NCBI GenBank assembly: GCA_010356995.1
Contig: ML996706.1
Span: 62,001 to 126,000 of the forward strand
Length of the DNA stretch: 64,000 nt
From: Trichodelitschia bisporula
Lineage: Eukaryota
Direction of reading: 5' to 3'
The notes beneath the pieces were generated by a model that saw only the letters and a program-made list of their open reading frames with translations, made no database searches and was not told the origin of the DNA. Every line of letters starts with the position of its first letter. Position 1 is the stretch's first letter. Below are positions 8,331-54,820 of the stretch, piece after piece. Position numbers and translations under genes: made by a program.

Positions 8331-9650
8331 GTTTTCTAATGGAGGAGTAGGCGTGAAGTGGAGAGTGAGATTACGGGGCGGCGTTTCGACTTATAAGGCC
8401 CAAGGAATGTCGACAAAGTGAGCGAAGGATGCTCAGCGTGATGTAGGAAAGCGGAGTATTGTGATGTCACTCAATGAAAGAATCGCGAATAGTGTCATGA
8501 ACTGCGCCAGAAGTGGACAAAGAAACTAAGAACAGGAACACAGAATAACAAAGTGAGATCACAATACGGTCTCCTAGCTCCTCCGCAAAGCGTGGTACAG
8601 ACCGGCTCTCTGATTTTCTTTCTTTCATTCATGAACTTTCAGCTGCTCTCTCCACCCCATCTTCACACACAGTATACTCAACGGTAATTAGTCTCAGAGT
8701 CGACTACAGGGCTTGGGGAAAAGACTGGCATATGAGTCGATCTGGTTCTAGTATTTTCATCTAAGTGGATTCACATTACCATAATAAGGTCTGAAAGCCT
8801 GCCCGAGGCAAATGCCCCAAAATAGGCTCTTCTGGTCCGCTGAAACTGGCTCGTTATCAGTTAGGTTTTTACAACCTGCGCACGAGGCTGAGGGAAGGCT
8901 GAGTTTCAGGTAAACTTACGGTAGGAAGTTGAGGAATGCCAGGTAACGAGCATGAGCTGTAACGCATTACACAAATCAGAGCAGTAAGCGGCTCGTCCGT
9001 TCATGAGCGTTCGTGACCTATCGATAAAAGCGATGAACCAACATAAGATGACAGGATGGCAGAGCTGGCAGAACTGGCCGCGCTGGGGCGTCACTCACCC
9101 AAGCGTTATCGATAAGTACCCCTGTATCGATAAATACCCGATGGGCCGAAGAAGGGCCGAAGAAAATCCGAGAAAATCCCGAGATCTATGGTCCGAGCTC
9201 AACAAGCTGCCAAAGCCCAATTGGCTTCCAGAGTGAACTTCCACCCTCCATTCAGAGCACAGCACACACCCTTGTCTTCCGCAACCACCTTTGTTGTCCA
9301 CCATCACCACCATGCCGAATTTTGAGGTCCTCTTTCGAAACGTGAGCTTTATGGCCATCACGCATCAATATGAACTCACCGAGATAAACATCGAAATACA
9401 ATCTACACGATACGCCTGGATTCCTTCCTGAATACATCGATGCATAGTGCCAGAGCGCGCGGCCCTGTCGCTTTCTCCCAGAAGTGTCCGTCAACCATCG
9501 GAAACTCCGGCGTATAATGCATCAGACGGAACCTTAAAGCCTAAACCAGAAGGTATGTATGAGAATGCAACACAACAAGCTGATTCTGATATAAACTAGA
9601 AGCCCGACTATGAAAGCCAGGTGTGCCGCTTGCTCCAGTCCCATATGCTC

Positions 9651-9704
9651 TCAGAATTGCAATGGTTCTTCATGAAGGTCCAGTACCACGAAGGTAATCA
9701 TCAT
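9651..9704 (-). ncRNA. Box C/D RNA-like unit 1
   Basis: ATGATGA-ttaccttcgtggta-CTGG-accttc-ATGAAGA-accattgcaatt-CTGA; flanking stem 9628-9650/9707-9727. Confidence 0.7.
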
Positions 9705-10056
9705 ATGAGCATAGGACTTGGACGAGCAGTCCCAACCGAAATACGAAAGCTGACTCGAAGGCCGAGTACGAAAGAAGAATACGAAAAGCAAACTCTGAAG
9801 ATCGAGTACAGAAGAAGCATACGAGACGCCGACCCGAAGGCCGAATACGAAGGAAGAATGCCAAACGCCAACTCCGAAGATCGAGTACAGAAGAAGCATA
9901 CAAGACACCGACCCGAAGGCCGAGTACGAAAGAAGAATACGAAACGCTGGTCCGAAGGTTGAGTACGAAAGAAGAATACGAAAAGCTGACCCAAAAGTCG
10001 AGTACCGAAGAAGCATACGAAAGCCAGTTGTGCTGCTTGTTCAAGTCCCTATGCTC

Positions 10057-10119
10057 TCAGAATTGTAATGGTTCTTCATGCAAAAGTCTGTAACCATAAA
10101 CCGACAAACTGATCATCAT
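10057..10119 (-). ncRNA. Box C/D RNA-like unit 2 (D' guide antisense to 18S rRNA UAACCAUAAAC)
   Basis: ATGATGA-tcagtttgtcggtttatggtta-CAGA-cttttgc-ATGAAGA-accattacaatt-CTGA; ~23-bp flanking stem 10033-10056/10122-10144. Confidence 0.75.
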
Positions 10120-10254
10120 ATGAGTATGGGACTTGGACGAGCAGTCCTCAACTGAAGTTTGAAAGCGGACCCAACGGACGACTACGAAGAGCTGGCTTCG
10201 AAGACTGAGCCTGAAGAGGTCTTGAAGCCCGAGTACGAAAGAATGGTACGAAAG

Positions 10255-10405
10255 ATGACCCGACGGTCGCGTACGAAAGAATGATACGAGAGATGACCCG
10301 ACGACCGCGTACAAAAGAATGAGACGAGAGATGACCCGACGGCCGTGTGCGAAAGAATGAGAGGAGGGATGACCCGACGGTCGTGTACGAAAGAATGATA
10401 CGAAA
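10255..10405. repeat. ~38-bp tandem repeat (about 4 copies)
   Basis: GATGACCCGACGGTCGCGTACGAAAGAATGATACGAGA and variants. Confidence 0.85.
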
Positions 10406-10457
10406 GCTGACCCGAAGGCCAAGTACGAGATGAGCCTTATCAAACCCTTGTATCTTC

Positions 10458-10509
10458 TCAGAAAGTTTTCTTCATCAGCTTGATCAGAATCACGAAGGTA
10501 TTTCATCAT
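10458..10509 (-). ncRNA. Box C/D RNA-like unit 3
   Basis: ATGATGA-aataccttcgtgatt-CTGA-tcaag-CTGATGA-agaaaacttt-CTGA; all four boxes near consensus; stem gtatcctc/gaagatac. Confidence 0.8.
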
Positions 10510-10974
10510 TGAGGATACCGGCCATGGCCTTGAGGGACGAAGACTTAGCTGTGCCGGAGATATCAACCTATACCGATGTAAGCGTGTTCGAGACGACTAC
10601 GAAAAAGCTGACCTAAGACAAAGCAGAGGCCAGACCAGGAATATCGAGAACGAGAAGAGAGATGACCCGGAGGTCTACGAAAGAGACGATCTGATATAAC
10701 CCAGAGGCCAGGCCAAGAAGACCGAGTACGAGAAGAGAGTTGACCCGAAGGTCTACGAGAAAGCTGGCCGGATACAAACCCGGATCAGCAAAGAGTGACC
10801 TGAAGGTCTACGAGAAAGCTGGCTTGAGACAAATCCAAGGCAAAGCCAAGAAGATCGAGTACGAAAAGAGTGTTGGCGCGAAGGCGTACGAAAAAGCCGG
10901 CCTGATACAAACCAGAGATCAGACCAAGAAAGTTGTCTACGAAAAGAGAGCTGACCCAAAGAGCCCGTATCTTC

Positions 10975-11028
10975 TCAGAGAATATTCTTCGTCATCGCGA
11001 TCAGAGACGTGCATATGTCTGTCATCAT
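10975..11028 (-). ncRNA. Box C/D RNA-like unit 4
   Basis: ATGATGA-cagacatatgcacgtct-CTGA-tcgcg-ATGACGA-agaatattct-CTGA; stem cctgtatctcc/gaagatacggg. Confidence 0.75.
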
Positions 11029-11386
11029 TGGAGATACAGGCGATAGCCTTGAGGGACATTGACTCAGCATCTCGGAGACATGAACATATACCGATGTAAG
11101 CGCGCTCGAGACTGAGCTGACCCGAAGGTGTACGAAAAAGCTGACCTGAGATAACTCAGATGCCGGACCAAGAAGAGTGACGACCCGAAGGTCTACGAGA
11201 AAGCTGGCCTGCAACGAACCAGAGACCACACCCAGAGGAGAGTTGACTCGAAGGTCTACGAGAAAGCTGACCTGGGAAAACAGGCCAGACCAAGAAGATT
11301 GAGTATGAAAGTTGCCCGAAGGCCGAGTACGATAGTTGACCCGAAAGTCAAGTACGAGATGAACCTTGTCAAGCCGTTGTATCTTC

Positions 11387-11440
11387 TCAGTCAATATCAT
11401 TCGTCAGCTTCATCAGAGACGTGCAAATGTCTGTCATCAT
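11387..11440 (-). ncRNA. Box C/D RNA-like unit 5 (D' guide antisense to LSU rRNA GACGUGCAAAU)
   Basis: ATGATGA-cagacatttgcacgtct-CTGA-tgaag-CTGACGA-atgatattga-CTGA; perfect stem tgtatcttc/gaagataca. Confidence 0.8.
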
Positions 11441-11861
11441 TGAAGATACAGGCGATGACCTTGAGGGACATTGACTCAGCGTATCGGAGACATAAACCTA
11501 TACCGATGTAAGCGTGTTCGAACAGAGCTGATCCGAAGGTCTACGAGAAAGCGGCCTGAGACGAACCAACGGCCAGACCAAGAAGAGTGATGACACGAAA
11601 GCGTACGAGAAAGCCGTACTGAGCAAACCGGAAGCCGGACCAAGAGGAGTTGACCCGGAGGTCTACGAAAAGGCTGACCTGAGACGAAGCAAAGGCCAGA
11701 GAGTTGACCTGAGACGAAGCAAAGGCCAGAGAGTTGACCTGAAGATTTACGAAATGACTGGCCAGAGAAGGATCAGAGGCCAGACTAAGAAGATTGAGTA
11801 CGAGATGACCACCAAGGTCGAGATACGACACAGCTGAGCCATGTCAACCCTTTGTATCTTC

Positions 11862-11905
11862 CCAGAAAAGCTTCGTCAACTTGTTCAGAGCTTATGTTCC
11901 ATCAT
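11862..11905 (-). ncRNA. Box C/D RNA-like unit 6 (degenerate C and D)
   Basis: ATGATGG-aacataagct-CTGA-acaag-TTGACGA-agctttt-CTGG; stem ttgtatcttc/gaagatacaa. Confidence 0.5.
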
Positions 11906-12286
11906 TTGAAGATACAAGGCATGACCTTAAGGGATGAAGATTCACCTGTCTCGGAGACATAAACCTATACCGATGTAAGTGTATTCGCGACGAACGACCC
12001 GAAAAGCTTCCCAAGACAGTTACGAGAGAGGCTGCCCAAGGCAGCTAAAAAGTACGAGACAACTTGTCTTTGGCACGTCCAAAGAAGGATACGAGAGATG
12101 TCGGCCTTTGAGGGCGCAACGGGCGTACGAAAGATGTCGACCTCCAAGGGCGACGGCGTACGAAAGACCTCCCTGACCTCTGGGGTGCGGAGAGAGTACG
12201 AGATGATCACCAAAATCCACTTACCTGACAGGACCACAAAGGTCGAGATGCGAGACCGGTGAGCCATCTCACACCCCCGTATCTTC

Positions 12287-12329
12287 TCAGGAGGGCTTCG
12301 TCAACTTGTTCAAAAGCTGTTTTCATCAT
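12287..12329 (-). ncRNA. Box C/D RNA-like unit 7
   Basis: ATGATGA-aaacagctt-TTGA-acaag-TTGACGA-agccctc-CTGA; stem tatcttc/gaagata. Confidence 0.6.
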
Positions 12330-12650
12330 CGAAGATATAGGCTCTCCCGGAGATACATGAACCTATGCTAATGTACACAGTATTCGAGACAAACGACCCG
12401 GCGGACTCAAAACAATTACGAAAGAAGTTGCCCCAGGCAACTAAAAAGTACGAGACAACTTGCCTTTAGCAAGTCCAAAAAAAAATACGAGAGATGCCGA
12501 CTTCAGAGGGCGCGACGTGGATACGAAATATCCTCTTGACCTCTTAGGACGCGGAGAAGAGTACGAGATGTCTTCCAAATCCACTTACCTGACAGGACCA
12601 CGAAGGTCGAGATGCGAGAGAGGTAAGCCATCTCAAACCCCCGTATCTTC

Positions 12651-12695
12651 TCAGAAGAGCTTCGTCATCTTGTTAAGAAGCTTTTGTTTCGTCAT
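12651..12695 (-). ncRNA. Box C/D RNA-like unit 8
   Basis: ATGACGA-aacaaaagctt-CTTA-acaag-ATGACGA-agctctt-CTGA; stem cctgtatcttc/gaagatacggg. Confidence 0.55.
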
Positions 12696-13000
12696 CGAAG
12701 ATACAGGCCACACTCACCCGTCTCGGAGTGACATAAAACCTATACCGATGTAAAGAGTGTGCGAGATGGACGACCCAAAAATTCCACAAGGGTTACGAGA
12801 AAGGTTGCCAATGGCAATTCCATTGGATAACTGAATAGATACGAGACAACTTGCCAACGACAAGTCCAAAAAAGCGTACGAAAGATTTCGACCTCTGAGG
12901 GCGCGGAGGAGTACGAGATGACTACTAAAATCCACCTACCTGATGGGACCACGAGACTAAGATACGAGACAGGTGAGCCATATCAACCCTGTGTACCTTC

Positions 13001-13042
13001 TCAGAAATGCTTCCTCAACTTGTTAGGAGCTTGCTCCATCAT
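13001..13042 (-). ncRNA. Box C/D RNA-like unit 9 (degenerate C and D')
   Basis: ATGATGG-agcaagct-(cCTA)-acaag-TTGAGGA-agcattt-CTGA; long flanking stem. Confidence 0.45.
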
Positions 13043-13129
13043 TTGAAGATACAGGGCATGCCTTCAGGGTTGAAGTCTCACCTGCCTCGAATTGTCAATG
13101 GCAAGCGAGAGAGCGTTAGTATACGGAAA

Positions 13130-13375
13130 AGCTTGCCAACGGCAAGTGAGAGAGCGCAACAATAAGAGAGAACTTGCCCACAGCAAGTGAGAGAACGCAA
13201 CCATACGAAAGAACTTGCCCATGGCAAGTGAGAACGCAACCATACGAGAGAACTTGCCCGTGGCAAGTGAGAACGCAACCATACGAGAGAACTTGCCTAT
13301 GGCAAGTGAGAGAACGCAACTATACGAGAGAACTTGCCAGTGGCAAGTGTAAGAGCGCAACCATACGAGAGAACT
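13130..13375. repeat. 33-35-bp tandem repeat (about 7 copies)
   Basis: GAACTTGCCnnTGGCAAGTGAGA(GA)ACGCAACCATACGAGA. Confidence 0.9.
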
Positions 13376-13486
13376 TTTTTATTGCAAGTGGGAAAGCGTT
13401 CCCAGGGCAAACGCTTTTAAAGTTTTACGTCAGATAGGTTTATGTTTCTTCAACACAGGTGAGTCAAGTCAACCCTTTGTATATCC

Positions 13487-13527
13487 TCAGAAATGCCCAT
13501 TAACTTGTTCAGAGCTTGTCTCATCAT
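13487..13527 (-). ncRNA. Box C/D RNA-like unit 10
   Basis: ATGATGA-gacaagct-CTGA-acaag-TTAATGG-gcattt-CTGA, inside a ~160-nt hairpin (13433-13592). Confidence 0.6.
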
Positions 13528-13924
13528 TTGAAGATACAGGGCATGCCTTCAGGGTTGAAGACTCACCTGCCTCGAAGAGACACAAACCTATCGATGTAAA
13601 CAGTGACCGTAGCGGCGGAGACGCGAAGTACGAAAGAATTTGTCCCTGACAGGTGTGGCCGTTGCGGCGGAGACACGAAGGTACGAAAAAACTTGCCTAT
13701 GGCAAGTGCGGCCATAGCGGCGTAGACATGATGGTCTCTAAGAGTTGTCTAATGGTCAACTATACGAAAGAACTTGCCAATAACAAGTGAGGGAGCGCAA
13801 ATTTAAGAAAAAATTTGCCCATGACAAGTGAGCGTTGCCTAGGGCGGGCAAAGGCTCTAAAGGCTTACATCAGATAGGTTTATGTCTCTTCCAGAGAGGT
13901 GAGTCAAGTCAAACCTTTATCTCC

Positions 13925-13964
13925 TCAGAAATACCCTTCAACTTGTTCAGGACTGACTCATCAT
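13925..13964 (-). ncRNA. Box C/D RNA-like unit 11
   Basis: ATGATGA-gtcagtc-CTGA-acaag-TTGAAGG-gtattt-CTGA; stem tatctcc/ggagata, a compensatory change relative to tatcttc/gaagata in other copies. Confidence 0.6.
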
Positions 13965-14284
13965 TTGGAGATATAGGGCTTGCCTTGAGGCTCCCCTGTC
14001 TTGAAGAGACACAAACCTATCGATAAACTGTACGAAAGAACTTGCCTATGACAAGTGAGAGAGCCGAACTTTAAGAAAAAACTTGTCCAGGACAAGTGTG
14101 GGCGTAGCGGCGGAGACACGAAGGTCTCTAAGAGTTGTCCAGTGGTCAACTGTACGAAAGAACTTGCCCATGACAAGTGAGATAGCGCAACATTAAGAAA
14201 AAACTTGCCTATGACAAGTGAGTGAGATCAGATAGGGTTATGTCTCTTCTAGATAGGTGAGTCAAGTCAAGCCTTTGTATCTCC

Positions 14285-14324
14285 TCAGAAATGCCCTTCA
14301 ACTTGTTCAGGACTGACTCATCAT
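14285..14324 (-). ncRNA. Box C/D RNA-like unit 12
   Basis: ATGATGA-gtcagtc-CTGA-acaag-TTGAAGG-gcattt-CTGA; near-duplicate of unit 11. Confidence 0.6.
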
Positions 14325-14539
14325 TTGAAGATACTGGGCTTGCCTTGAGGTTTACCTGCCTCGAAGAGACACAAACCAATTGATGAACTGTACGAAAGAA
14401 CTTGTCTATGACAAGTGTGGCCGTAGCGGCGGAGAGTACGAAAGAACTTGCCTATGGCAAGTGTACGAAAGAACTTGTCGATGACAAGTGTGGCCATAAC
14501 GGCGGAGACACGAAGGTCTCGAAGAGTTGTCCAATGGTC

Positions 14540-14706
14540 AACTGTACGATAGAACTTGCCTGTAGCAAGTGTACGAAAGAACTTGTCGATGACAAGTGTA
14601 CGAAAGAACTTGCCAATGACAAGTGTACGAAAGAACTTGCCAATGACAAGTGTACGAAAGAACTTGCCAATGACAAGTGTACGAAAGAACTTGCCAATGA
14701 CAAGTG
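14540..14706. repeat. 27-bp tandem repeat (about 6 copies)
   Basis: GAACTTGCCAATGACAAGTGTACGAAA; the last copies are identical. Confidence 0.95.
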
Positions 14707-14740: not shown

Positions 14741-14930
14741 ACTTACCTGGTATTTGGGTCGAAGCCATGACACTGTATGTCGAGGCAGTGTGCAGTCAAA
14801 AGTCGATGGGGGCGTTGGGTGGAGCAAAGAGTGGAAGAAAAGGTGCTGCAGTCAAAGACTGTGGAAGAAGATGTGGATGTGGATGTAAAGGAAAGGTTTC
14901 TGGAGAGCCCCTCGAGGGGTATTTAAGGAC
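14741..14930 (-). promoter_or_regulatory. Putative promoter and first exon of the array's host transcript
   Basis: Minus strand: TATA-like TTAAATA at ~14920-14926, then a CT-rich leader (catccacatccacatcttcttcc), then a consensus donor CAG|GTAAGT at 14746, immediately upstream of the array. Confidence 0.45.
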
Positions 14931-15243
14931 CTGGGGAGCGCTAGTTGATATCGTGGGCACCGCTGGTGGATTCACCACAGCAGGCAGGTACCAGGGGTGC
15001 CAGCATTATGGGAGTGTGGGGAGGGGGACGATGAGGTGAATCGCTAGTTGATTTGCCAGAACGGGCGGGTACGCTGGGGTGGCGGCACGATGTGGGTGTG
15101 CGGAGCGGACGATGAGGTGAATGATTGCTATCGGGTGGGTGCTGCTGCAGCGGGTGATGGGCGGCACACGCTTTTTCCGAGCAGGTGCAATTTGGTACCC
15201 CATTCACTGGCACCTGCCAAACCGGGTCGAGCCCATCGGCCCA

Positions 15244-15345
15244 TGCCGACTCGGTACCGGCTCCATGCCGGCTTGGCACCGGCCCGTGCCGACTCGGCAC
15301 CGTCACATGCCGACTCGGCACCAGCCACATACCGACTCAGTGCCG
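15244..15345. repeat. Five 21-22-bp spaced copies of palindrome TGCCGA-C-TCGGCA
   Basis: Copies start at 15244, 15266, 15287, 15308 and 15330. Confidence 0.8.
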
Positions 15346-16426
15346 GCCATATACCGGCCATAACAACCGGGTGCAAGCGGCAACTTAATGAGTGAGCGGG
15401 CCGATGCTTGAAGAGAGCACATCAAAGGAGATGGGGAAGCATTTCACTGGGTTTGTTCAGCAAACGTATACGAATCGTAATTAGCATCGGATGGCGAAGA
15501 ACACATTGTACATGGAATGGTGAAGAGGAAACCGAGCCTTGAGTTTGATAGCGAGCGAGCAAGTATGCGATTTGCAATGCAATTGTGCTTTACGAACTAT
15601 GAACCATAATGATCTACAAATATAATGCTGCAAGTCAAGCGGAGAAGCCAACCCTCCTTGGCTCCAACAGCATCTACTAGCGTGTCAAACCGTATGATGC
15701 ACGATGCTGAACCGGTTATCATACTGGGGAAGGAAATGCGGTATTTCTAGGGCTCCAGAACGAAATGCTTTGAGAAGAGTTTGCTCTATGATAAAAATCC
15801 ATGGGAAGAGGTGAGGTTGGAGCTCACGGACAACATGTTACCAGTTGAAAATATCAGTGCATGTGATTCAAGGACTCGATGCTCCATAACGAGGTCGTGG
15901 AAAATTTCTTGAGACTCTGAAGCTTATGATGGGAGAGAGTGGTACCCGTATATTGCCTAAAGGCGCTCTCCATGGATAACAATCCTAGTTCATGAGCAGC
16001 GGACGCTTCATTGTGTAGCAGGGTAATAATCTACAGCTTCATGGATGTTCCGAATGGGAAAATCCCACTCCGGTCCAGCCTCGTCCACCAGCACGTGATC
16101 GAGCCTTGCGCCCCAAGGCGGTGATGGACATGTGATGCTGAATTAACAGTGAAGGTCCAAAGGATGGCAAACGCGGTCTAGAGTTCAAGTAATGCAGTTC
16201 ACTCATCTATGACATTTCAAATATATTTCTCATCAACGCCTCTGTGATCCTCCTTTCGAGCTTTTGGTATATGCCGCCGGCCAAATTTTGGCAGCGATTT
16301 TGGTAGAATGCCACGATGGTGCTCAGGAGCATCACCAACTTTCATGGCGTTACGAGCCAGCACTCAACTAAAAGGTTGATGCACTATCACCAAGGCTTCT
16401 AGCATAGCGTCACATATGGCGCTTGA

Positions 16427-22183: not shown

Positions 22184-23190
22184 ATGCTCTCAGCAACTCG
22201 TACTCTTCTCCGCACGTTCCCCCGGCAGATCCGCACAATGACCAGCGCTGCCGCAGCCCGCCTCTCCGGCAAAACCATCCTCATAACCGGCGCCTCGTCC
22301 GGCATCGGACGCAGCACCGCGAAGGAATTTGCGCGTACGAGCCCAAAGGACTTGAAGCTCATCGTCACGGCGCGGCGGCTGGAGAGCTTGAAGAGCCTGT
22401 CTGAGGAGATTAAGACTGAAGTTGGAGAGGGCGTGCAGGTCCTCCCAGTGCAGCTGGATGTGAGCGACCCTCAGCAGGTGGCCGGGCTGGTAGGGAAGCT
22501 GCCGGAGGGGTGGGGCGAGGTAGATGTGCTCGTCAACAATGCGTGAGTCCTCCACTCCCTGTGCGTTTTGGCTAGGTGCTAATCGTGGCACAGTGGACTC
22601 GTAAAGGGCATGGCACAAGCCCCCGCCATAGAAGCAGCAGACATCGACATCATGTTCAAGACAAACGTCCACGGCCTAATCAACATGACGCAAGCCATCC
22701 TACCCATCTTCAAGAAGCGGCCCGACGGCGGAAGGGGCGACATCATCAACATCGGCAGCATCGCGGGCCGCGAAGGGTATGCGGGCGGGAGTATATACTG
22801 CGCGACGAAGGCGGCGGTGCGTACGTTCACGGAGGCGCTGCGCAAGGAGCTGATTTCGACCCGTATACGGGTTATGGAGATTGATCCCGGGCAGGTTGAG
22901 ACTGAGTTTTCGGTTGTTAGGTTTTATGGGGATAAGGCGAAGGCGGATGCGGTTTATGCGTAAGTGCTGAGTGAGGCGAGATGGTGGGGACTAATGGGAA
23001 TAGGGGCTGTGAGCCGTTGACGCCGGATGATATTGCGGAGGTGGTGGTCTTCACCGCCAGCCGGAGGGAGAATGTCGTTATCGCGGACACTTTGGTCTTC
23101 CCCAGCCATCAGGTATGTCTCCGCTCAGACCGAAGGCAAAGCTAACCATCATAGGCCGGGGCAGGTGTGCTGTACAAGAAGCCGGCGTAA
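22184..23190 (+). CDS. Short-chain dehydrogenase/reductase (YdfG / YMR226C-like 3-hydroxy acid dehydrogenase)
   Basis: TGASSGIG, NNAG and YCATK motifs; VETEFSVVRF; three introns (~22543-22593, ~22960-23003, ~23113-23153). Confidence 0.92.
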
Positions 23191-34758: not shown

Positions 34759-36484
34759 GATGGTTATAGTTTAGTTGATTGAGGAGGTAATGGTAAGATG
34801 TACTGTATTCCCGTTAGATGGGTGATGATCGTTGATCATCGTTGGTGGTGTGAGGGTGACGTCATGTTGATGAATGTAAAGTCAAAGAGTTAGACCTTGA
34901 GATACAAACCTTCGATGATATTCAGAGGTGCGTTGCCGGCCTGTCTACCATGATTGTCCGCTTTTCGAATTTTGGCTGCTCAGCGCTGGCCGCTATGGTG
35001 CTGTTCCCGTACCCGAACCTGCTGGCAAGGTTCATCACATAGTGTCACCTAAACACTGCCATCCCACCTTTGATATCATATTCGCTGAACTGGAACACTG
35101 TTCACCGTTGATGCTACTTCAGGACTCACGTCGGCTCCGTACAGCGGCGAGATGAAGGGAAAGGATTACGCCCGCTGAGACAGATCGTAACCGCTTATCA
35201 CGTCTTCTTTGAGAGAATAGACTAGGCACTTTGCAGCTGTCAGAGACCGATCTTTCTGTACCTCCATGCGGGCGCCACAGTACTTGGTTGTAGCGTGTAC
35301 CACAGCAGATGTTGTCGAAGTGAGTGGTCATGAATGTCGCTTCATGCTCCTTGCCGCGGGATGCGCGCTTGACGCCGTGTACCTAGGGCTAGTGTTGGCG
35401 CTCGTCCATTCCGACGACCTCCCATTTCAACCTGCCTTGCCACATACTTTTCAACCTCACTCGTTGTCGTGATAGACCTTTTGACAGTTCTTTCGCTTAC
35501 TTTAACTGCAAAAATAACTTCCATCACCTCCACCGCCTCGAATCCGAACTTCTCTGGATTGTAGTACCTACCTGGAGAAGTCGACGAGCCATACCATGAC
35601 GGGCCGGCCCATATTCACTGCACATTCATCGGCTGCATGCAGCACAGCGGAAAGGCGACAAACGAACAGACGATGGACGAATTGGATTCGATTTCCGGCT
35701 ACTCCCAGCTAACAGCCTCGTTGACGCCTACGTCTGTGCCGCAATGCCTCGTCTGGCCCTCCTAGGCCAACCAACTGCTAGAAAGCCTTGCGTGTACTTT
35801 CATGCTGGGCGTCGAGCGTATCTACTGGATATATCCGATGTATCAAGTGCCGTCGCTATGCCTCTAGCATCCATTGGGTGTGGCCTCAAGTTTCTTTTTT
35901 CCGTTTGTCGCGGGGGAATGGACTGTGGCTTCTTGCCGCTCGCTATCTTCCTAGCTGCTCCCACGCGGTCCACCTCCATGAACCATGAAAGGCTGGAATA
36001 TTTATGCGCGTTCTGGGTTCCGGGATCGTGATGATGTTCGTGGCCGCAGTCACTGTCTTGGACCGATGAGTTGTTCGTCTTGCCTCCTCTCTAACCCCGA
36101 TGGATGTCGGCTGCGAGCAAGGATTAATGCAAACGGCTGGATTTAGATGTCTGTCAAATCGCCCATTTGGTGAAGTCCAGAATCACACTATCGCCTTCTA
36201 AACAGTCGGTGTCCAATCTGCGCCCTGCCGAGCACCCGTCCTGTCTCGCTCCGGGTAATAGCATGAGAGCGAGTGCAATCCTTGGACGGGCGGATTTTGT
36301 CCCATGCTCTGCCGCTTTCAAAGTTGTTGAGGCAGCTTGAGTTAAGGGTGAGACGGAAGGCGAAGATGGGCTAACAACCTGTTCCTTCAACCCCATACAA
36401 TAAGGATAGTCCAGCTCCTCGCTAGCTCCACATCTCCTTTCCTCCACAACCTCCTCTCGGCTTCCGCCATTTTTTCACAGCAGA

Positions 36485-39400
36485 ATGTCGCTGGAGTCAA
36501 TTTTCAACCACCTTGTGCTGCCTCCAAAGCTGCCAGGCAGGGAGGATAGCAACTTGGACGAAATCAATCGCCAGCTCACAACTCGACTTCTCAAAGCCGT
36601 CGACACACTTAGAGATTCAGATGACGAATTCTTTCAAACCCTTGACAGTATTAGCCGCTCCATCAAGCTTTGCGAAGCCATTAACGAAGATGGATGGATC
36701 AACAAATCGGCCCTCATGAATGCCTTTCCCTCAGTCCAGCACTCGGACGCAGTCATCTTGCATATCAGCGGGCAGAATGCTGGTCTCCTGATACGGCCTG
36801 AGACTGAGTGAGTGACATTGGAATCTCATAACTTCATCGACTGATAATCACAGCAAAATCGTCTTTGAAGCTTTCGAAGCTTCACCGGTTTCCGAAGACG
36901 TCTTGGCTTCGAAGGCCGCCCTTGAATGGGATTTCCCTGGCAGTGCGGTCGCTATGAGCCTTCGGGACTTCGTGGATCCCAACTTCCAGGAAGCCATTGC
37001 CGATTTTCTTGGAGAAGTCAGCTCGCAGACATTCGGCAGGTTTGCGGCCAGCACCAAGAAGGCAGGAAAGGACAACGTCGAGGTCCGGGACACTACGGAT
37101 CCAGCTCTCGTGACACAACTGCTCATGAACTTACTGGAGCCTCAAGGATGCCGCGTATTTCCTCCTCTGTTGCGCAAACGTGTCTACGACAACGTGTGCT
37201 GGGACAATTCAGAAATACCTTGGAGGCGGTCTCCATTCTGGCTCGTGCTCCGCGTGTCACTTCAGAGACTACTTTGCCTGTCACTGGGCGACGGGGAAGG
37301 ACGGGTGCATTATAAATTCATCCTTTGCCTTGTATTGGCGAAACTGCTCGATGAATCATTGGCCCACCCCAGCCTCGAGACTCCACATCTCTTGAAGGCT
37401 AAGCTCTGCAGACGTCTCGGGAAGCTCGAATCAGAGAGATCTCAAGCGTTTGGCTCCCTCCATGAGGTCTATGGCAAGCTTTTTGCAGCGCTGGAACCGT
37501 GTTTGCGAGCGTCTGTCCTGGCGGCCACCAACCACATCGAAGTGAAGTGGCGGCAATACAGGAAAGACATTCAGAGACCGATTCCGAAGCTGCCACTTCG
37601 GGTTGGCCCATTGGAAACTCGCCTTTTGCTTCGAAACAGTGGAGAACATCTCGGGGCCATCTTGGACGAGTTCCAACGGTCGAGCAGAATGAGATACATA
37701 TCTTCCGAGGCACGCGACTATGAAATTGCTGTCAGAGATTACATGTCTAAAGCTCCGATGCATCAGCTCTTTACTCGCTACATGTCGCTTGCAGGTCTCA
37801 ACTGTGCTATGGTCCGCTTTGCAAACGAAACACAGGAAGTGCTGGGCTATCATCCTCTAAGGATAGTCAGTGACAACATCCACAAATTCCTCGATGAAGC
37901 TCACGGCGCCTTTGATTCTTGTCCGGAGCAGATGAGTAGCATCCTTCTCACTGTTTTCAGGCTTTGGATGGCCATGGACGAATGCACCACGCGCAGCTTT
38001 CCTCTTTTGAAAGAGTATCATCCTGGCTTTGAACCTGAGATTCTGGATGTTCTGCAGCTGTCTCGCCTTGAGGACATGGTGTCTTTGCGGACAGTGCAAG
38101 AATACGTCATGGAAAGGTGCAAGCATTCCGGCAGGGCGACCATTTTTGCGGATCCTGGACTCGATTGTTTCGCTTACCGCTTTGTACAAGAATCACCCTC
38201 CATGTTCCGCGCCCATCAGCAACGCGTTGAACAGGCTTCAGAGGCGGCGCGCAGTGCAAAGGAGCGTGAATGGCGCCGTTTGGACGCCGAGTATTCTAGG
38301 TTCACGTCGCAGATTGCTGTCTCAACTTGCACCCTAAAGCGGAACCCCGATGGCTCGCACGACATCAAAGGCTGCAGTCAATGTTACTTCCGCCGTCAGC
38401 GGAAGCGACTTCGGATTGATATTCACGAAGAGTTTCTTCCGAATGAAGACACGACGGCGAATATGATTCAGAAGCAAGCAATAATCTTTGAGATGGCAAT
38501 TCCTATGGAATTTGCAATGTATCGAGAGGCCACTTGGAGAATCCTTAGCACCCTGTGCCGTCCGAAAGGGGCCATGACTTCGGAAACTCCGCGAGTACTG
38601 CTCAAGGATCATCCCCCGCTTCAAATATTTATGCCCATGAGTTCGGGCAACTTTGCCTTGGGTTCTAAGACGAAGTCCTTTCTTGTCGCCCACTACAAAT
38701 CTCGCCGTTTCCCCGCGTCCTTGGATGATGTCATCAAGCCTTTAGGACTCAATTTCTCCTACTACGACTCGAGGCTTAAAGGCTGGGCGAGCGACCTAAC
38801 CACTCCGCCGACTCTTGTGCATCATTGCTTGTTCTCTGCTCAGAAGACGCCCTTTACTGGAGTTGATCATCTTACCGGTCCAACTTCGTATGAAATCATT
38901 TCAAACCAGACCAAGTGTCCCTCTGCTCTAACCCAGCAGGAGTTTGCGGCCTATCAAAGCCTCTTAACGGGGAAAGCTGGCCGGTGGATGACAATCATAC
39001 GAGAACTTGGATCCACTAATCTCAACTTCAGCTCCGAAGCTACGATGAACCTGATCAACCAATTGGCGTTGCAGGCCGGACCAACTCATGAATCCGATGT
39101 CCTTCGTGTTCCTCACGTTACCTTTCGAGATACTGATTTCTGCGACAAGCTTTTTCAGTTGCTTAACCAAAAGTTGGATGGCTTGTTCACGAACTGGCGC
39201 GAGACTCACTGCTTGGAGCTCTTGACGACGTTGACCCTTCGCCTCTGCACTCTTGGCGACGACCTCGCTAAGAATAACGGCTTGCGGCTGCTCACAAAGG
39301 TCCGCACTGTGACGCTCAATTGGATTCTTCGACTCCGGGCGGAAGTCTCCTCGGCGTCCGACGCTGATTCCGCCAAAAGAGCTGCTCAATACGCCTTCGG

Positions 39401-42400
39401 GGCTGCTTTGTTGTGTCGCAGAACCTTCTCTGCCAACTGTGACCTTGACATCCAAGTTAATGAGGAGGCGCTTAAGTGCTTCGTTGAGGCCTCTATTGCG
39501 CTACAAGAGAATGCCCCTAGCGATCCTTCCTCACTCCCACTGGCGTTGAAAAACATGCTCTTGCGAGATGTATACTTATCATTCCGGATCACACATCGTG
39601 TTCGTCAGGCCATTCGATCTTATCCAGCCGGGCTGGCCTCCGCTATCGAGACCGTTTGGCCTCTGCCTGAAGGGAGTCCACATAGGGCCTTTGCACAGTG
39701 GAAGTTTTTGCAGCCGCCCGACGATGAATGGGTGATGTCGACTGTTCAAGACGACAAGCTGAAGCCACAGACTGTCCATTACAATTTTGTCCAAGGCCAC
39801 CTTACCGTTGATTCGAAGCCCTTGGGGAAGCTCCCTGCGGATGTACGTGACTCCGAAATTGTCAAAATGCTTTTTGGGAACCAACATCTGCTTTCGGTTC
39901 CTTCTAATGTCCCTGGGATGCTCCATGCCCTGGTTACGCCACTGGAGGACCATGTTGTGCATATTGGGTATCGTGGGGGACAACTTATGCTCCGAGCCTT
40001 GTACAGGAGCACTACGTTGGAGCTTATTAGCTCCAGTATGTTCGGCCATGCTCACAGCCTCGACCTGCCAGCTTCACTAGTCAATGACTGTGTTCACTGG
40101 CTGGATCTCAAGAGCGGGATTATGGACATCAGAAGGAAGCCAGCTATTTGGCGTGCCAACCGCCCGGCAAACTGGGCGCTCGATATTCGCAATTGTCGGG
40201 CTCGCCGGCGTGATGTGTTGTTAGTTGAGCCTTCTTGTCCGGTTGCGCAGGACATTGTCGGCATCTTCAAGCATTTCGCCGCTGCTCAGGATCTGACGAT
40301 ATACCAGCGTCAGAAGCGTGGGGGCACTCTCTCTGTGGATATCAAGCACTTTGATCTCCGGTTCAACGTCAACCACAAACAACTCCTGCAGTCGAGGCAA
40401 TTGACGTCGGAAATTGACCCCGACCAAGACGCGGGGGTGTTCTACGGGCTTCAGAGCAAAATTGTCCTTCGGGACATCGCAAATCCGCTTCTGCGAAGCA
40501 TCATCCTTCCCCTGGGGACTTTGGATTTCAGGCGAACTCCTGTACATGTGTCATCTCGTATTATGTCTACAGCCGGCGTTTACGCGCGCTTCAATATCAA
40601 CGCCGAGCTACAGCGCCTGGAATGCCCCCCCGAGCCGCGCTTGCTCTACACCAAAGCTGAGCTCCACGCTTACACGTCATTTTTCTTGCCGGATCCCTTG
40701 ACAGGGAGAACGGGGGCAGAGGAGGCTCTTCATTGTCTGCATTCGGGCCTGTTCCAACCGTGGAGTTCAACTGAGTTCCCCATCGCGCTGACCAAGTTAC
40801 TCTCCATTGCCAAGCTAACGCCACTCCGCAAGTACTATCCACGCGGGCTGAAGCGACAACAAGAAGTCGGTTGGAACGAAAACCTTACGGCGTCTGTTCA
40901 ACACGAGAGCTACCTACCGGCCGTCGCCGCCATCTACTCGGCCTTTGAAAGATTATCTGCGCTAGCTGAAAAAGATTCAGACAAACCCCAAACGGAGCTG
41001 TCCAAGATAATTGCAGGCTACGTTTCGCACCTCGGCGAACGTGCTTCCGCTCACCAGTCTCGATATGAGCGTCCGCATGCCTTCTCTGGCAGGTATGACA
41101 GACTGCTGGATGTTGCTTATCAACGTCGTGACAACCCGGATCAGTCAAAACAAGGCAAAAATGTGTATGATGTTGCATTTTTGCTCTGCAATCCACCACC
41201 GGCTCAGCTTCGCACGACATTGACTTTGGCGGCGCAGCTAAGCAAGTTTACCCTCATTCAAGGGCACCACAAAACTTACGATGCAACGATCGACTCATCA
41301 CTCAGCGCGGACCTCGCTCTGAGTTGGGGTTCTCTTGTTGAGCTTTGCCGAAAGAGTCGGCCCGAACAAAAGCACCGTTTGATATTTGTTTTAGGGACCA
41401 TTGCCTTTCGCAACGATATCGACATGAATCTCATCAAGACGCTATTGGCCTTCAGCATCTTCGATGAGCTCAAAGACAAGCGCTTGCCGGAGTTCCCTAC
41501 CTTCATGGACTTCAAGCCGAATGAACCCCCAACAGAAGAGGTATTGACCACTTTGGTTTCTGGTTGTCACCCTCCATATACTTCCAGCGATGTAGAAGAA
41601 CACGATGGTTACTTCAAGCTGTCGGCCAAAATGCGAAAGGCGCGGTTGAACGCGCCAAAAGCATATGAAGCGAAATGTGCCGAGGAGAACAAGAGATTCG
41701 TCGGGTTTCTTTTACGCCAGTGGCCCTGCAGGTGCCCGAGCTCAGAAGGGTTTGATGCTGCGAGTCTTGAAGTTTACCAAGCCATTGAACTCATCAAGCC
41801 GGAATGGTTGAGATTGTGGCAAAATCTACAATTCTCGCAGCACCTTGACGATGTTCAAGGAATTCTTAAGGCTCGTTACACTCGGGTGCAAACCCCCCAA
41901 CCGCAATCAGCAGTGCATGATGTTGAATATTTCCGGATGTACTTTGAGCGCATGGCCATGCCGTCACTTTCGCCTAACTTCTTATCAGCATGTGGTACTA
42001 TCCATGCCACCGGTCTTCCAGGAACTTCAGGCGTTGGAATTGCTAGAACCAGTGCCGTCGAAACCCCATTCCATCGAGACATCTGCAAAATACTGCCCGC
42101 CGATCACATGGAATTGGACCAGCTTCTAAGTCGCTTTTCTCATACGGAATCACCGTTGCGGAAGCGGTACGCCCAAGACATGAAACAAAGCCTGGTGGCA
42201 TTGAGCAAAACGGATCAGGAATCGAACCAGCCTCGAAATGAGCCTCCGCCGCATCGTGAATTGGCTGATGCCCAAACGTCTATGCAGCAACGGTTGGAGG
42301 GGATCCAACTTGCTTGCTCCGCAAATGATCCTAGGAGTTGGTGGCTAACAAATAGTGGTCTTTGGCCCTGCATCTCTCCGGTCACCCTGCTTGAGCAGCT

Positions 42401-45400: not shown

Positions 45401-46141
45401 AGAGTCTAATCCAACAATACTGACGATATCTAGCGCCCGGTCAACTGGATCCTCTGGTGTCCCTCCACGCAAACGGCTCTTGTCGTTATTCCTGAGGAGG
45501 CCGAAGAATTAATCCCCATTGTCCGGAAAGCCAACCATGCACAAGTTCATCTGGTGATCTATTCAGCCCCGGTCACCAAAAGGATGCTGCACTTCAACGA
45601 CCTCACGTTCTACTCATTGCCATCGCTTCGTCGCGGCTGGAAAGCGCCTCTTTGGCTGAGAATCCATCTCGGAATCCTTGCCGGGAGACTTTATTTCGAG
45701 TTTGAAGAGCATGGCGAGTTGACAAGGGTTCTAGGGCTCGGGGATGATCCCGTGGATGCACACCGCGGAAGTCAGATAGATAGGGCGGACGACGGAGAAA
45801 CGCGACTCAACTCGAGGCTCAGGAGTTTCGTACAGGACTGGTTGGCTATCAGGCGCAATGGGCAGGATTTCACGCACACTCCGATGGGTTACCTTTGTCA
45901 GGGGTGGACACTAAGGCCGGAGCATCCCTTCTTTACGGAGAGTACCCAGAGCGAGGCTGAGCGGCTTGTCGCCGGAGTTGATCGGTTGCGGATCGGACGA
46001 TCCAACCCCAATGCGGAGGTGGATTATGACAGTGGCGACGAGGATTACGAATCCGAGCATGAGGAAATTGACGACGGAGAGGATGGGCTAGAGGATGGGC
46101 TAGAGGATGGAGCTGAGAGTCAACGTGCTGTAGACTTCTAG
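36485..46141 (+). CDS. Very large (~3170 aa) DUF6606/DUF3638/DUF3645-type P-loop protein
   Basis: HLVLPPKLP, FEAFEASP, PWRRSPFW, YPDWLLLEI, QMQMGQGKT (across intron 42712-42760), LDESD, EWGHPDV, GFSGTND, DEAHTRGTDL, QAAMRLR. Other introns 36808-36853 and 45382-45433. Confidence 0.88.
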
Positions 46142-54732: not shown

Positions 54733-54820
54733 TCTCCTTTGGTGTAGTGGTTATCACTTTGGATTTTGATGTATATCTTCAAAAGTTCCAACAACCCCGG
54801 TTCGACTCCGGGAAGGAGAT
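54733..54820 (+). tRNA. tRNA-Gln(TTG) with ~16-nt intron
   Basis: Acceptor TCTCCTT/AAGGAGA, D arm GTGTAGTGGTTATCAC, anticodon arm TTGGA-TT-TTG-A[intron]T-TCCAA, T arm CCCGG-TTCGACT-CCGGG, T-run terminator. Confidence 0.9.

What the first reader, a model, noticed from the sequence alone, without database searches (positions are those of the whole stretch)
11862..14324. Ultra-short dual-guide units (40-45 nt) resembling TIGR-type guide RNAs, with a polar gradient along the array
Seen: cores shrink from 52-63 nt (guides 10-22 nt) at the promoter-distal end to 40-45 nt (guides 6-11 nt) at the promoter-proximal end. Adjacent units are most alike (1/2, 4/5, 7/8, 11/12), and units 11/12 and the 27-bp repeats beside them are nearly identical. 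Established: eukaryotic methylation guides are normally about 10 nt or longer, while prokaryotic/phage TIGR arrays yield ~36-nt RNAs with two ~9-nt spacers between C/D-like repeats, bound by Nop-domain Tas proteins. Inference: the short units may use both guides jointly on one target, act as double K-turn scaffolds or decoys for Snu13/Nop proteins, or be decaying copies. The most recent duplications appear to be at the 5' end. No Nop-domain ORF is visible in this window.
Basis: partly seen in the sequence, partly recalled or inferred. Interest (0 to 1): 0.75.

Follow-up and report, generated by a model that had tools for sequence, protein, structure and literature searches.

The report
Fungal tandem array of shrunken snoRNA-like units
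A fungal non-coding locus holds twelve tandem box C/D snoRNA-like units, seven with guide segments too short for normal guiding but with well-kept protein-binding boxes; it resembles mammalian orphan snoRNA arrays, not bacterial TIGR systems.

Summary
Twelve box C/D-like units lie on the minus strand between 9651 and 14324. Their cores are 54, 63, 52, 54, 54, 44, 43, 45, 42, 41, 40 and 40 nt. The seven short ones (11862-14324) have spacers of 7-11 and 6-7 nt.

The window is fungal. One ORF is 100% identical to a Trichodelitschia bisporula protein. Units 3-12 are paralogs made by local tandem duplication.

In the short units the C box, D box and terminal stem are much better kept than the flanks (19 of 27 versus 38 of 100 invariant columns). 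The guide spacers are not. No short spacer matches rRNA better than shuffled spacers do.

Spacer hairpins tolerate G.U only on the minus strand (13 versus 0). A motif, YUYUCGUA, occurs 53 times there.

The TIGR reading fails four of five defining features: Nop-domain gene, about 36-nt regular array, CCA/UG boxes and prokaryotic host.

One unexpected result: the only transcript evidence is a plus-strand, GT-AG-spliced non-coding RNA antisense to the units. Expression of the units themselves is untested.

The best reading is a lineage-specific orphan C/D snoRNA array. Its miniaturised members are kept for K-turn and snoRNP assembly, not for canonical guiding.

The parts
9651..9704 (-). u1. C/D-like unit, 54 nt, of family A (u1/u2). 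Its D spacer is complementary to LSU rRNA.
   Evidence: 10 WC + 1 G.U pairs to LSU, anchored shuffle p about 0.016.
10057..10119 (-). u2. C/D-like unit, 63 nt, paralog of u1 (72% identity). It has no clear D' box.
10458..10509 (-). u3. C/D-like unit, 52 nt, of family B (u3-u12). It shares a 10-nt D' spacer segment with the otherwise unrelated u1.
   Evidence: Weak Rfam hits SNORD126 (E 0.0086) and SNORD18 (E 0.025), both below gathering.
10975..11028 (-). u4. C/D-like unit, 54 nt, paralog of u5 with one change in the LSU-complementary spacer.
   Evidence: Rfam SNORD31 E 0.0043, below gathering.
11387..11440 (-). u5. C/D-like unit, 54 nt. Its D' spacer has 11 contiguous Watson-Crick pairs to a conserved LSU rRNA segment.
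   Evidence: the same site in at least 7 of 14 eukaryotic rDNA loci. (p about 0.014).
11862..11905 (-). u6. Short unit, 44 nt. Its D box is CTGG, the only short unit with a damaged terminal D box.
12287..12329 (-). u7. Short unit, 43 nt. It lies wholly inside a 122-nt plus-strand intron.
12651..12695 (-). u8. Short unit, 45 nt. C box ATGACGA; D' degenerate (CTTA).
13001..13042 (-). u9. Short unit, 42 nt. D' degenerate (CCTA).
13487..13527 (-). u10. Short unit, 41 nt. C' degenerate.
13925..13964 (-). u11. Short unit, 40 nt.
14285..14324 (-). u12. Short unit, 40 nt. It differs from u11 at 1 of 40 positions.
13425..13590 (-). A 166-nt extended hairpin enclosing u10. Similar outer inverted repeats enclose u9, u11 and u12.
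   Evidence: Minus strand -71.4 kcal/mol, z -8.0. Plus strand -60.1 kcal/mol, z -6.5.
14436..14706 (-). Ten 27-nt repeats, each a 7-bp hairpin plus the YUYUCGUA motif, upstream of u12 on the minus strand.
9742..14687 (-). Inter-unit spacers built from small hairpins plus 53 copies of YTYTCGTA.
   Evidence: 58 copies in the window against 5.4 expected, 53 of them here on the minus strand; 22 ACTTG-type hairpins with 13 stem cells that are G.U on the minus strand and 0 that are G.U on the plus strand.
14745..14931 (-). Candidate minus-strand promoter and first exon: TTAAATA, a CT-rich stretch, an ATG, then CAG|GTAAGT.
   Evidence: Read from the sequence only. Not supported by transcript data.
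9312..14700 (+). Plus-strand spliced non-coding transcript, antisense to the units. Its nine GT-AG introns are 9553-9599, 9694-9774, 10578-10623, 11096-11159, 11303-11352, 12259-12380, 12973-13026, 13459-13512 and 14257-14330.
   Evidence: Contig joints in runs X1 and X2. Splice-site and branch-point motifs, and no long ORF.

Best explanation
This is a lineage-specific tandem array of box C/D snoRNA-type genes on the minus strand of a fungal non-coding locus.

Ten units (u3-u12) are paralogs made by repeated local duplication of a roughly 350-520-bp module. Each module holds one unit plus a spacer of hairpins and motifs. The two remaining units (u1, u2) are a second family.

Inferred mechanism, none of it shown:
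1. A minus-strand Pol II transcript starts near 14.9 kb and runs through the array.
2. Each unit's 8-bp terminal stem brings boxes C and D together into a K-turn. In u9-u12 a roughly 45-bp outer stem prolongs it.
3. The K-turn recruits Snu13, Nop56/58 and fibrillarin.
4. Exonucleases trim the precursor back to the protected particle.

Two long units (u5, u1) can guide 2'-O-methylation of LSU rRNA.

The seven short units descend from the same stock by small deletions in both spacers. They keep the protein-binding parts under selection. Their spacers of 6-11 nt are too short for canonical D+5 guiding. They are therefore orphan 'mini' C/D RNPs whose kept property is assembly, not targeting.

The array is not a TIGR-type system.
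For: - Architecture: all 12 units are on one strand with C, D', C', D and a terminal stem. A generic screen finds 9 of them against 0.16 hits expected.
- Common descent: u3-u12 align over about 200 nt at 53-85% identity. Tree clades (u3,(u4,u5)), (u7,u8) and (u10,(u11,u12)) have support of at least 99.
- Selection on the short units: in u6-u12 the C box, D box and stems are invariant in 19 of 27 columns, against 38 of 100 flank columns (Fisher p 0.004). Mean pairwise identity is C box 0.95, D box 0.93, stems 0.85-0.88, spacers 0.56-0.67 and flanks 0.66-0.69.
- Youngest pair: the u11 and u12 cores differ at 1 of 40 positions, while their whole repeat periods differ by 16% (binomial p 0.008).
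- Terminal K-turn: the G.A core is intact in 6 of 7 short units.
- Strand: 22 spacer hairpins have 141 Watson-Crick cells, 13 cells that are G.U only on the minus strand, and 0 that are G.U only on the plus strand. Both compensated states are present. Folds of the units are more stable on the minus strand in 10 of 12 cases.
- Guides: u5 D' has 11 Watson-Crick pairs and u1 D has 10 plus one G.U, both to conserved LSU rRNA and both starting next to the box (p about 0.014 and 0.016).
- Confinement: a covariance model of u3-u12 finds no further copy in the window.
- Background from papers (passages read): fungal C/D guides pair over 10-21 bp and N. crassa C/D snoRNAs are 73-212 nt (PMC2780460). 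Tandem orphan C/D arrays with kept boxes and varying guides are known in mammals (PMC11028025).
Against: - The only transcript evidence goes the other way. Of the 11 joint rows inside the array, 10 are GT..AG in plus-strand letters (nine introns, one listed with two alternative boundaries) and one is a low-depth AT..AC row. None is CT..AC. No minus-strand precursor or small RNA has been seen.
- Rfam gives no hit at gathering score in the array. It gives only weak sub-threshold hits for u3-u5, with single sub-threshold rows at E 1.2 for u11 and E 9.5 for u7.
- Only 2 of 24 spacers match rRNA better than shuffles. Taken over 24 tests this is borderline.
- Terminal-stem covariation is not significant. 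93.8% of the 80 cells are paired, with one compensatory change, and 84 of 500 shuffles do as well.
- Plus-strand 3' splice sites overlap the complements of D', the ACAAG loop and the C-box flank. Some of the conservation could therefore serve the other strand.
- The internal C'/D' motif is damaged in 3 of 7 short units, and the D box of u6 is CTGG.
- No homologous array could be found for comparison.
Confidence: 0.6

Rival explanations
1. The short units are pseudogenised duplicates of a u3-u5-like snoRNA. They are decaying and have no function of their own. The apparent conservation reflects young age, gene conversion or constraints from the other strand.
For: - The spacers are 6-11 nt and none matches rRNA better than shuffles.
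- The D box of u6 is CTGG, and C'/D' is damaged in u8, u9 and u10.
- No paired-guide targets were found.
- Plus-strand acceptor sites overlap the units.
Against: - Core columns are kept well above flank level (19 of 27 versus 38 of 100, p 0.004).
- This holds although the units are only 53-85% identical overall.
- u11 and u12 differ at 1 of 40 core positions against 16% across the repeat period.
- The terminal G.A core is intact in 6 of 7 short units.
Confidence: 0.22
2. The functional product is the plus-strand spliced non-coding RNA. The C/D-like motifs on the opposite strand are relics or by-products of inverted repeats that serve plus-strand splicing or structure.
For: - Nine plus-strand GT-AG introns have good 5' splice sites and branch points. 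The same joints appear in both runs, but those runs come from one sample.
- The transcript starts next to a divergent neighbouring gene.
- The plus-strand 5' splice site after each unit is conserved in several repeats.
Against: - The plus strand has no known use for the invariant complement of RUGAUGA.
- The G.U asymmetry of the hairpins is 13 to 0 for the minus strand.
- rRNA complementarity sits correctly next to D' and D only on the minus strand.
- Plus-strand acceptor sites differ from unit to unit.
Confidence: 0.1
3. A TIGR-like dual-guide system. The two short spacers of each unit act jointly on one target through a Nop-domain effector.
For: There are two short spacers of 6-11 nt between box motifs, with palindromic flanks and a tandem layout. 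This is superficially like the stem-loop TIGR arrays, which have two 8-12-nt spacers.
Against: - No Nop domain in the 102 ORFs scanned, out of 171.
- The boxes are K-turn type, not CCA/UG.
- The units are 347-519 bp apart.
- The host is a fungus.
- No adjacent spacer-A plus spacer-B match in the window outside the array or in an rDNA unit.
Confidence: 0.02

Closest known systems
Eutherian tandem-repeat orphan C/D snoRNA families (SNORD115/116, SNORD113/114, rat Bsr), as described in passages of PMC11028025
   Same: Paralogous C/D units are repeated in tandem inside a non-coding locus. Evolution is by local duplication. Boxes are kept while guide regions change. There is no convincing rRNA target for most copies.
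   Different: This is a fungus and has only 12 units. The cores are 40-63 nt with spacers down to 6 nt. The spacers are built from hairpins plus a repeated 8-nt motif. The only transcript seen is spliced on the opposite strand.
Fungal UHG-like C/D snoRNA clusters (N. crassa clusters I-VI; the conserved snR72-78-type cluster), from passages of PMC2780460 and PMC5824354
   Same: Several C/D units sit in one non-coding, intron-containing locus of an ascomycete.
   Different: Those clusters hold different snoRNA families of 73-212 nt with 10-17-bp rRNA matches, one per intron on the host's strand. Here ten units are paralogs of one another and most lack targets. The word 'tandem' does not occur in the text of PMC5824354.
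Archaeal box C/D sRNAs (recalled, no call)
   Same: They have a compact, symmetric C-spacer-D'-short loop-C'-spacer-D layout. The D'-C' loop here is 5 nt.
   Different: Archaeal spacers are about 12 nt, and that spacing is needed for activity (recalled). Here the spacers are 6-11 nt.
TIGR-Tas arrays (PMC12045711, abstract and passages)
   Same: Tandem units with two short spacers flanked by box motifs. The stem-loop TIGR variant also has palindromic flanks.
   Different: TIGR yields 36-nt RNAs from regular arrays. Its boxes are CCA/UG without a K-turn. A Nop-domain Tas gene lies adjacent. Its hosts are prokaryotes and phages, and its targets are DNA.
sno-lncRNAs (passages of PMC11028025)
   Same: Two C/D units flank an internal RNA rich in repeated protein-binding motifs.
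   Different: They are known only in mammals, use full-size snoRNAs, and arise from a single intron. There is no evidence for such RNAs here.

Membership tests
Eukaryotic box C/D snoRNA | C box RUGAUGA near the 5' end and D box CUGA near the 3' end | tested here: met
   The C box is ATGATGA in 9 of 12 units, ATGATGG in 2 and ATGACGA in 1. The D box is CTGA in 11 of 12 units and CTGG in u6.
Eukaryotic box C/D snoRNA | Terminal stem joining the 5' and 3' ends next to the boxes | tested here: met
   An 8-bp stem in u3-u12, with 93.8% of the 80 cells paired. There is one compensatory pair, and covariation is not significant.
Eukaryotic box C/D snoRNA | Antisense element of at least about 10 nt next to D or D' that pairs with rRNA or snRNA (D+5 rule) | tested here: inconclusive
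   Met by u5 D' (11 Watson-Crick pairs) and u1 D (10 plus one G.U), with p about 0.014 and 0.016. Not met by any of the 14 spacers of the short units, which are 6-11 nt with p 0.17-0.80. The targets tested were one foreign eukaryotic rDNA unit. snRNAs, tRNAs and this fungus's own rRNA were not available.
Eukaryotic box C/D snoRNA | Match to a curated family model | tested here: not met
   There is no Rfam hit at gathering score. The best sub-threshold hits are SNORD31 at E 0.0043, SNORD126 at 0.0086 and SNORD18 at 0.025, for u3-u5.
Eukaryotic box C/D snoRNA | Stable small RNA bound by Snu13, Nop56, Nop58 and fibrillarin | not testable with these tools
   No small-RNA data were available. The two runs laid are contigs.
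TIGR-Tas array | Adjacent gene for a Nop-domain Tas protein | tested here: not met
   None of the 102 ORFs scanned, out of 171 ORFs of at least 110 aa in the window, has a Nop domain.
TIGR-Tas array | Regular head-to-tail array giving RNAs of about 36 nt (edge repeat, spacer A, loop repeat, spacer B) | tested here: not met
   The units are 347-519 bp apart, separated by unrelated repeat families.
TIGR-Tas array | Box motifs CCA ('C') and UG ('D') without a K-turn | tested here: not met
   The boxes here are RUGAUGA and CUGA. The motif definition comes from passages of PMC12045711.
TIGR-Tas array | Prokaryotic or phage host | tested here: not met
   The window has fungal genes and spliceosomal introns. 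Its ESF1 ORF is 100% identical to a Trichodelitschia bisporula protein.
TIGR-Tas array | Two short spacers (8-12 nt) that pair with adjacent sites on the two strands of one target | tested here: inconclusive
   The spacer lengths of 6-11 nt overlap the range. No adjacent paired match was found in the window outside the array or in rDNA unit L189. The rest of the genome was not available.
Tandem-repeat orphan C/D snoRNA array (SNORD115/116 kind) | Many paralogous C/D units in tandem within a non-coding transcribed locus | tested here: met
   Ten paralogs plus two units of a second family lie in 4.7 kb. The locus is covered by spliced contigs and has no Pfam-bearing ORF.
Tandem-repeat orphan C/D snoRNA array (SNORD115/116 kind) | Each unit lies in a repeated intron of a host transcript on the same strand | tested here: not met
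   The introns seen are on the opposite strand. GT 5' splice-site-like sequences on the minus strand precede only 5 of 10 family-B units (read from the alignment).

The most novel reading that the evidence does not exclude
The short units may be guide-less snoRNP 'caps'. They would be kept only to assemble a K-turn particle that blocks exonucleases. Pairs of neighbouring units would then define stable minus-strand RNAs of about 350-500 nt, like sno-lncRNAs. The bodies of these RNAs are arrays of small hairpins plus the YUYUCGUA motif (53 copies), and they would hold or sequester an RNA-binding protein. The overlapping spliced antisense RNA could regulate this.

This one model would explain four things: kept boxes, free-shrinking spacers, strand-specific hairpin conservation, and persistence of the motif across unrelated spacer repeat families. 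It would be the first such system outside mammals.
Probability: 0.1. Interest if true: 0.8.

Novelty: new variant of a known kind. Interest (0 to 1): 0.45.

Why it matters
Tandem arrays of orphan C/D snoRNAs are so far described as eutherian innovations (passages of PMC11028025). The fungal snoRNA surveys whose passages I read report mostly single-copy families (PMC2780460, PMC5824354).

A fungal array would be a simple, haploid setting for asking what orphan C/D RNPs do. This one has members that keep the K-turn and terminal stem but have lost usable guide length. It would also let one ask how far a C/D RNA can shrink and still assemble. The strand-specific hairpin-plus-motif spacers and the spliced antisense transcript are extra, unexplained features that are easy to test.

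Tried and rejected
- Sequencing runs: no RNA holder listed. The two runs laid are contigs of one sample and guessed to be RNA. Their depth, and the lack of cover right of about 14.9 kb, were not used as evidence.
- Whole genome: none is held for this window. A proteome-wide count of Nop, Snu13 and fibrillarin paralogs and a genome-wide target search were therefore impossible.
119 loci were held in the script box, and only one (L127, at a contig edge) had TGATGA upstream. The covariance model R1 found nothing in 100 of those loci. Earlier findings of this scan held nothing relevant.
- rRNA: the ITS4-primer scan of prokaryote assemblies gave contaminant eukaryotic rDNA pieces. The LR12-primer scan of viral contigs gave only one partial LSU 3' end. 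A family search by handles failed twice. A pattern search then gave a full rDNA unit, L189. This is a foreign eukaryote's rRNA, not this fungus's own.
- Known methylation sites: I could not map the predicted LSU sites to known ones because numbering differs between organisms. My recalled rRNA sequence was not reliable enough to use.
- Repeat-induced point mutation: transition-to-transversion counts between neighbouring repeats are 32:24, 52:24 and 54:47, with no strong signature.
- Homol-D promoter box (PMC4138321): the CAGTCAA repeats upstream of the array lack the invariant AGTCAC core, so I dropped this.
- UUCG-loop hairpins: their strand asymmetry was mixed (13 plus-type versus 9 minus-type cells, several of them spurious), so it was not used.
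- Coding reading: there is no Pfam family in 7 array ORFs. The spliced plus-strand transcript has 54-64 stops per frame, and its longest open stretch is 221 codons.
- The extra screen hit at 23152 (minus strand) has no clear terminal stem and probably lies in a coding exon.
Full report
**What is there**

Minus-strand reading of 9.6-14.4 kb shows 12 units. Each has the layout 5' stem - RUGAUGA - spacer - D' - short loop - C' - spacer - CUGA - 3' stem. Core lengths from C to D are 54, 63, 52, 54, 54, 44, 43, 45, 42, 41, 40 and 40 nt for u1 to u12. The finding's coordinates (11862-14324) are exactly u6-u12. In those units the spacers are 7-11 nt before D' and 6-7 nt before D, and the D'-C' loop is always ACAAG.

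A generic C/D screen recovers 9 of the 12 units, all on the minus strand. It finds one other site in 64 kb and none on the plus strand, against 0.16 expected from 100 shuffles. Length falls with position (rho -0.93), but in steps.

**Context**

The window is fungal. It encodes Lon protease, ESF1, an Spb4-like helicase, a GH15 glucoamylase, BCCIP and other ordinary genes. The ESF1 ORF is 100% identical, over 86% of its length, to an NCBI protein labelled Trichodelitschia bisporula. The next-best hits are 57-60% identical, so no close relative is available for comparison. The array lies in a roughly 5.5-kb stretch without a Pfam-bearing ORF and without a long ORF on either strand. None of the 102 ORFs scanned, out of 171 of at least 110 aa, has a Nop, fibrillarin or L7Ae domain.

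**Relationships among the units**

Aligned with about 80 nt of flank on each side, u3-u12 form one family at 53-85% identity. u1 and u2 form another (72% to each other, 34-43% to the rest). The tree has the clades (u3,(u4,u5)), (u7,u8) and (u10,(u11,u12)), each with support of at least 99. u6 and u9 sit on short branches near the centre.

The array therefore grew by local duplication of a 347-519-bp module. The 'gradient' is a nested series of small deletions in both spacers that neighbours inherited. Against u3-u5, the short units lack 5-9 nt before D' and 3 nt before D. Transition-to-transversion counts between neighbours are ordinary.

**Are the short units decaying?**

The answer is no, at least not at the rate of their flanks. 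In u6-u12 the C box, D box and terminal-stem columns are invariant in 19 of 27 cases, against 38 of 100 flank columns (Fisher p 0.004, Mann-Whitney p 0.0005). Mean pairwise identities are:
- C box 0.95
- D box 0.93
- stems 0.85-0.88
- loop 1.00
- spacers 0.56-0.67
- flanks 0.66-0.69

u11 and u12 differ at 1 of 40 core positions, while their whole repeat periods differ by 16% (p 0.008).

By the recalled structure of the C/D K-turn, the essential G.A core of the terminal motif is intact in 6 of 7 short units (u6 has CTGG). The internal C'/D' motif is intact in 4 of 7. This is the pattern expected if protein binding is selected and guide length is not. Two caveats apply. The terminal stem hardly varies, so covariation is not significant. 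Parts of the units also overlap plus-strand splice acceptors.

**Guides**

I obtained eukaryotic rDNA from contaminant contigs in prokaryote assemblies. One of them, L189, is a complete unit with SSU, 5.8S and LSU.

In an anchored test, the duplex must start within 2 nt of the box and reach position 5. By that test, u5 D' pairs with 11 contiguous Watson-Crick pairs to a conserved LSU segment (p about 0.014). The same site is present in at least 7 of 14 rDNA loci. u1 D pairs with 10 Watson-Crick pairs plus one G.U to another LSU segment (p about 0.016). The other 22 spacers, including all 14 from the short units, do no better than shuffles (unanchored version). Two hits in 24 tests is only suggestive.

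u4 carries the u5 spacer with one change. u1 and u3 are otherwise unrelated but share a 10-nt spacer segment. No site with adjacent matches to both spacers of a short unit exists in the window outside the array or in L189.

Rfam has no hit at gathering score. It gives only weak hits for u3-u5. A covariance model of u3-u12 finds no other copy in the window.

**Strand and transcripts**

Two runs of one sample, held as contigs and guessed to be RNA, carry contigs across the array. Of the 11 joint rows inside the array, 10 are GT..AG in plus-strand letters (nine introns, one listed with two alternative boundaries) and one is a low-depth AT..AC row. The neighbouring gene shows CT..AC. The nine plus-strand introns have good 5' splice sites (GTAAGC, GTGAGT, GTATGT and similar), CTRAY-type branch points and AG ends.

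A spliced, non-coding plus-strand RNA therefore runs antisense to every unit. Unit u7 lies whole within one of its introns and the core of u12 within another, while u1, u9 and u10 are cut by intron ends. No joint of minus-strand polarity was listed.

Several structural signals nevertheless point to the minus strand:
- The box polarity itself.
- The rRNA complementarity.
- The more stable folds in 10 of 12 units (for u10, -71.4 versus -60.1 kcal/mol).
- The 22 ACTTG-type spacer hairpins. Of their 154 stem cells, 141 are Watson-Crick, 13 are G.U on the minus strand only and 0 are G.U on the plus strand only. Both compensated states (C-G and U-A) are present.

Upstream on the minus strand lie TTAAATA, a CT-rich stretch, an ATG and a consensus CAG|GTAAGT. 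This is a plausible promoter and first exon, but it is read from sequence only. Expression of the units themselves remains untested.

**Spacers**

Every inter-unit spacer is built of small hairpins plus the motif YTYTCGTA. The motif has 58 copies in the window against 5.4 expected, and 53 of them are on the minus strand inside the array. This holds although the spacer repeat families differ (27-, 38-, 41-, 63- and 78-nt units). The spacer architecture is unexplained.

**Comparison with known systems**

I took the defining features of TIGR-Tas from the abstract and passages of PMC12045711. They are 36-nt RNAs from regular arrays, CCA/UG boxes without a K-turn, an adjacent Nop-domain Tas gene, and prokaryote or phage hosts. 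All four were tested here and none is met. Only the short dual spacers resemble TIGR.

The units meet the sequence definition of eukaryotic C/D snoRNAs (boxes and terminal stem). The short ones fail the guide criterion. N. crassa C/D snoRNAs are 73-212 nt and pair over 10-17 bp (Table 1 and passages of PMC2780460).

The nearest known kind is the eutherian tandem-repeat orphan C/D families (passages of PMC11028025). The same review notes that understudied genomes might harbour further snoRNA tandem repeats.

I found no fungal tandem array in the papers I read. The text of 'The fungal snoRNAome' (PMC5824354) contains the word 'tandem' zero times. I did not read supplements of these papers, and they may list paralogs.

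**Verdict**

The array is real, non-random and correctly described. It is a lineage-specific tandem array of C/D snoRNA-type units. Its miniaturised members keep their K-turn parts under selection but cannot guide canonically. The TIGR reading is not supported. The decay reading is disfavoured but not excluded. The antisense spliced transcript and the hairpin-plus-motif spacers are new observations that need strand-specific RNA data.

Noticed in passing
window 9312-14700 (+): A spliced non-coding plus-strand transcript with nine GT-AG introns runs antisense to all 12 C/D-like units. It appears to start beside the divergently oriented neighbouring gene.
   Followed up: partly
window 9742-14687 (-): The motif YTYTCGTA occurs 53 times on the minus strand of the array, out of 58 in the window against 5.4 expected. 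There are several copies in each spacer, in spite of different spacer repeat families. No binding factor is known to me.
   Followed up: partly
window 12458-14705: 22 ACTTG-type 7-bp hairpins have 13 stem cells that are G.U only on the minus strand and none that are G.U only on the plus strand. Both compensated states are present.
   Followed up: yes
window 9651-9704 and 10458-10509 (-): u1 and u3 belong to different unit families (37% identity). They still share an identical 10-nt segment at the same place in the spacer before D'. No rRNA match was found for it.
   Followed up: partly
window 14745-14931 (-): A TTAAATA, a CT-rich stretch, an ATG and a consensus CAG|GTAAGT lie just upstream of the array on the minus strand. 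This could be a promoter and first exon.
   Followed up: no
window 9021-9135: Three copies of an ATCGATAA-like motif lie in the interval between the minus-strand neighbouring gene and the start of the plus-strand transcript.
   Followed up: no
window 15237-15356: Tandem 21-22-nt repeats (about 5 copies) lie in the intergenic stretch between the array and the GH15 gene.
   Followed up: no
window 23090-23152 (-): This is the only other hit of the generic C/D screen. It has ATGATGG and two CTGA but no clear terminal stem, and it is probably a chance match inside an exon.
   Followed up: partly
window 54733-54820 (+): An 88-nt tRNA match (Rfam 51.3 bits). It is longer than the 71-position model, so it may contain an intron.
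   Followed up: no
window 36410-45423 (+): A very large gene, or gene pair, with DUF6606, DUF3638 and DUF3645 domains.
   Followed up: no
L189 (G001:C137) and L001-L060: Many prokaryote genome assemblies contain contaminant eukaryotic rDNA contigs. One holds a complete SSU-5.8S-LSU unit.
   Followed up: partly
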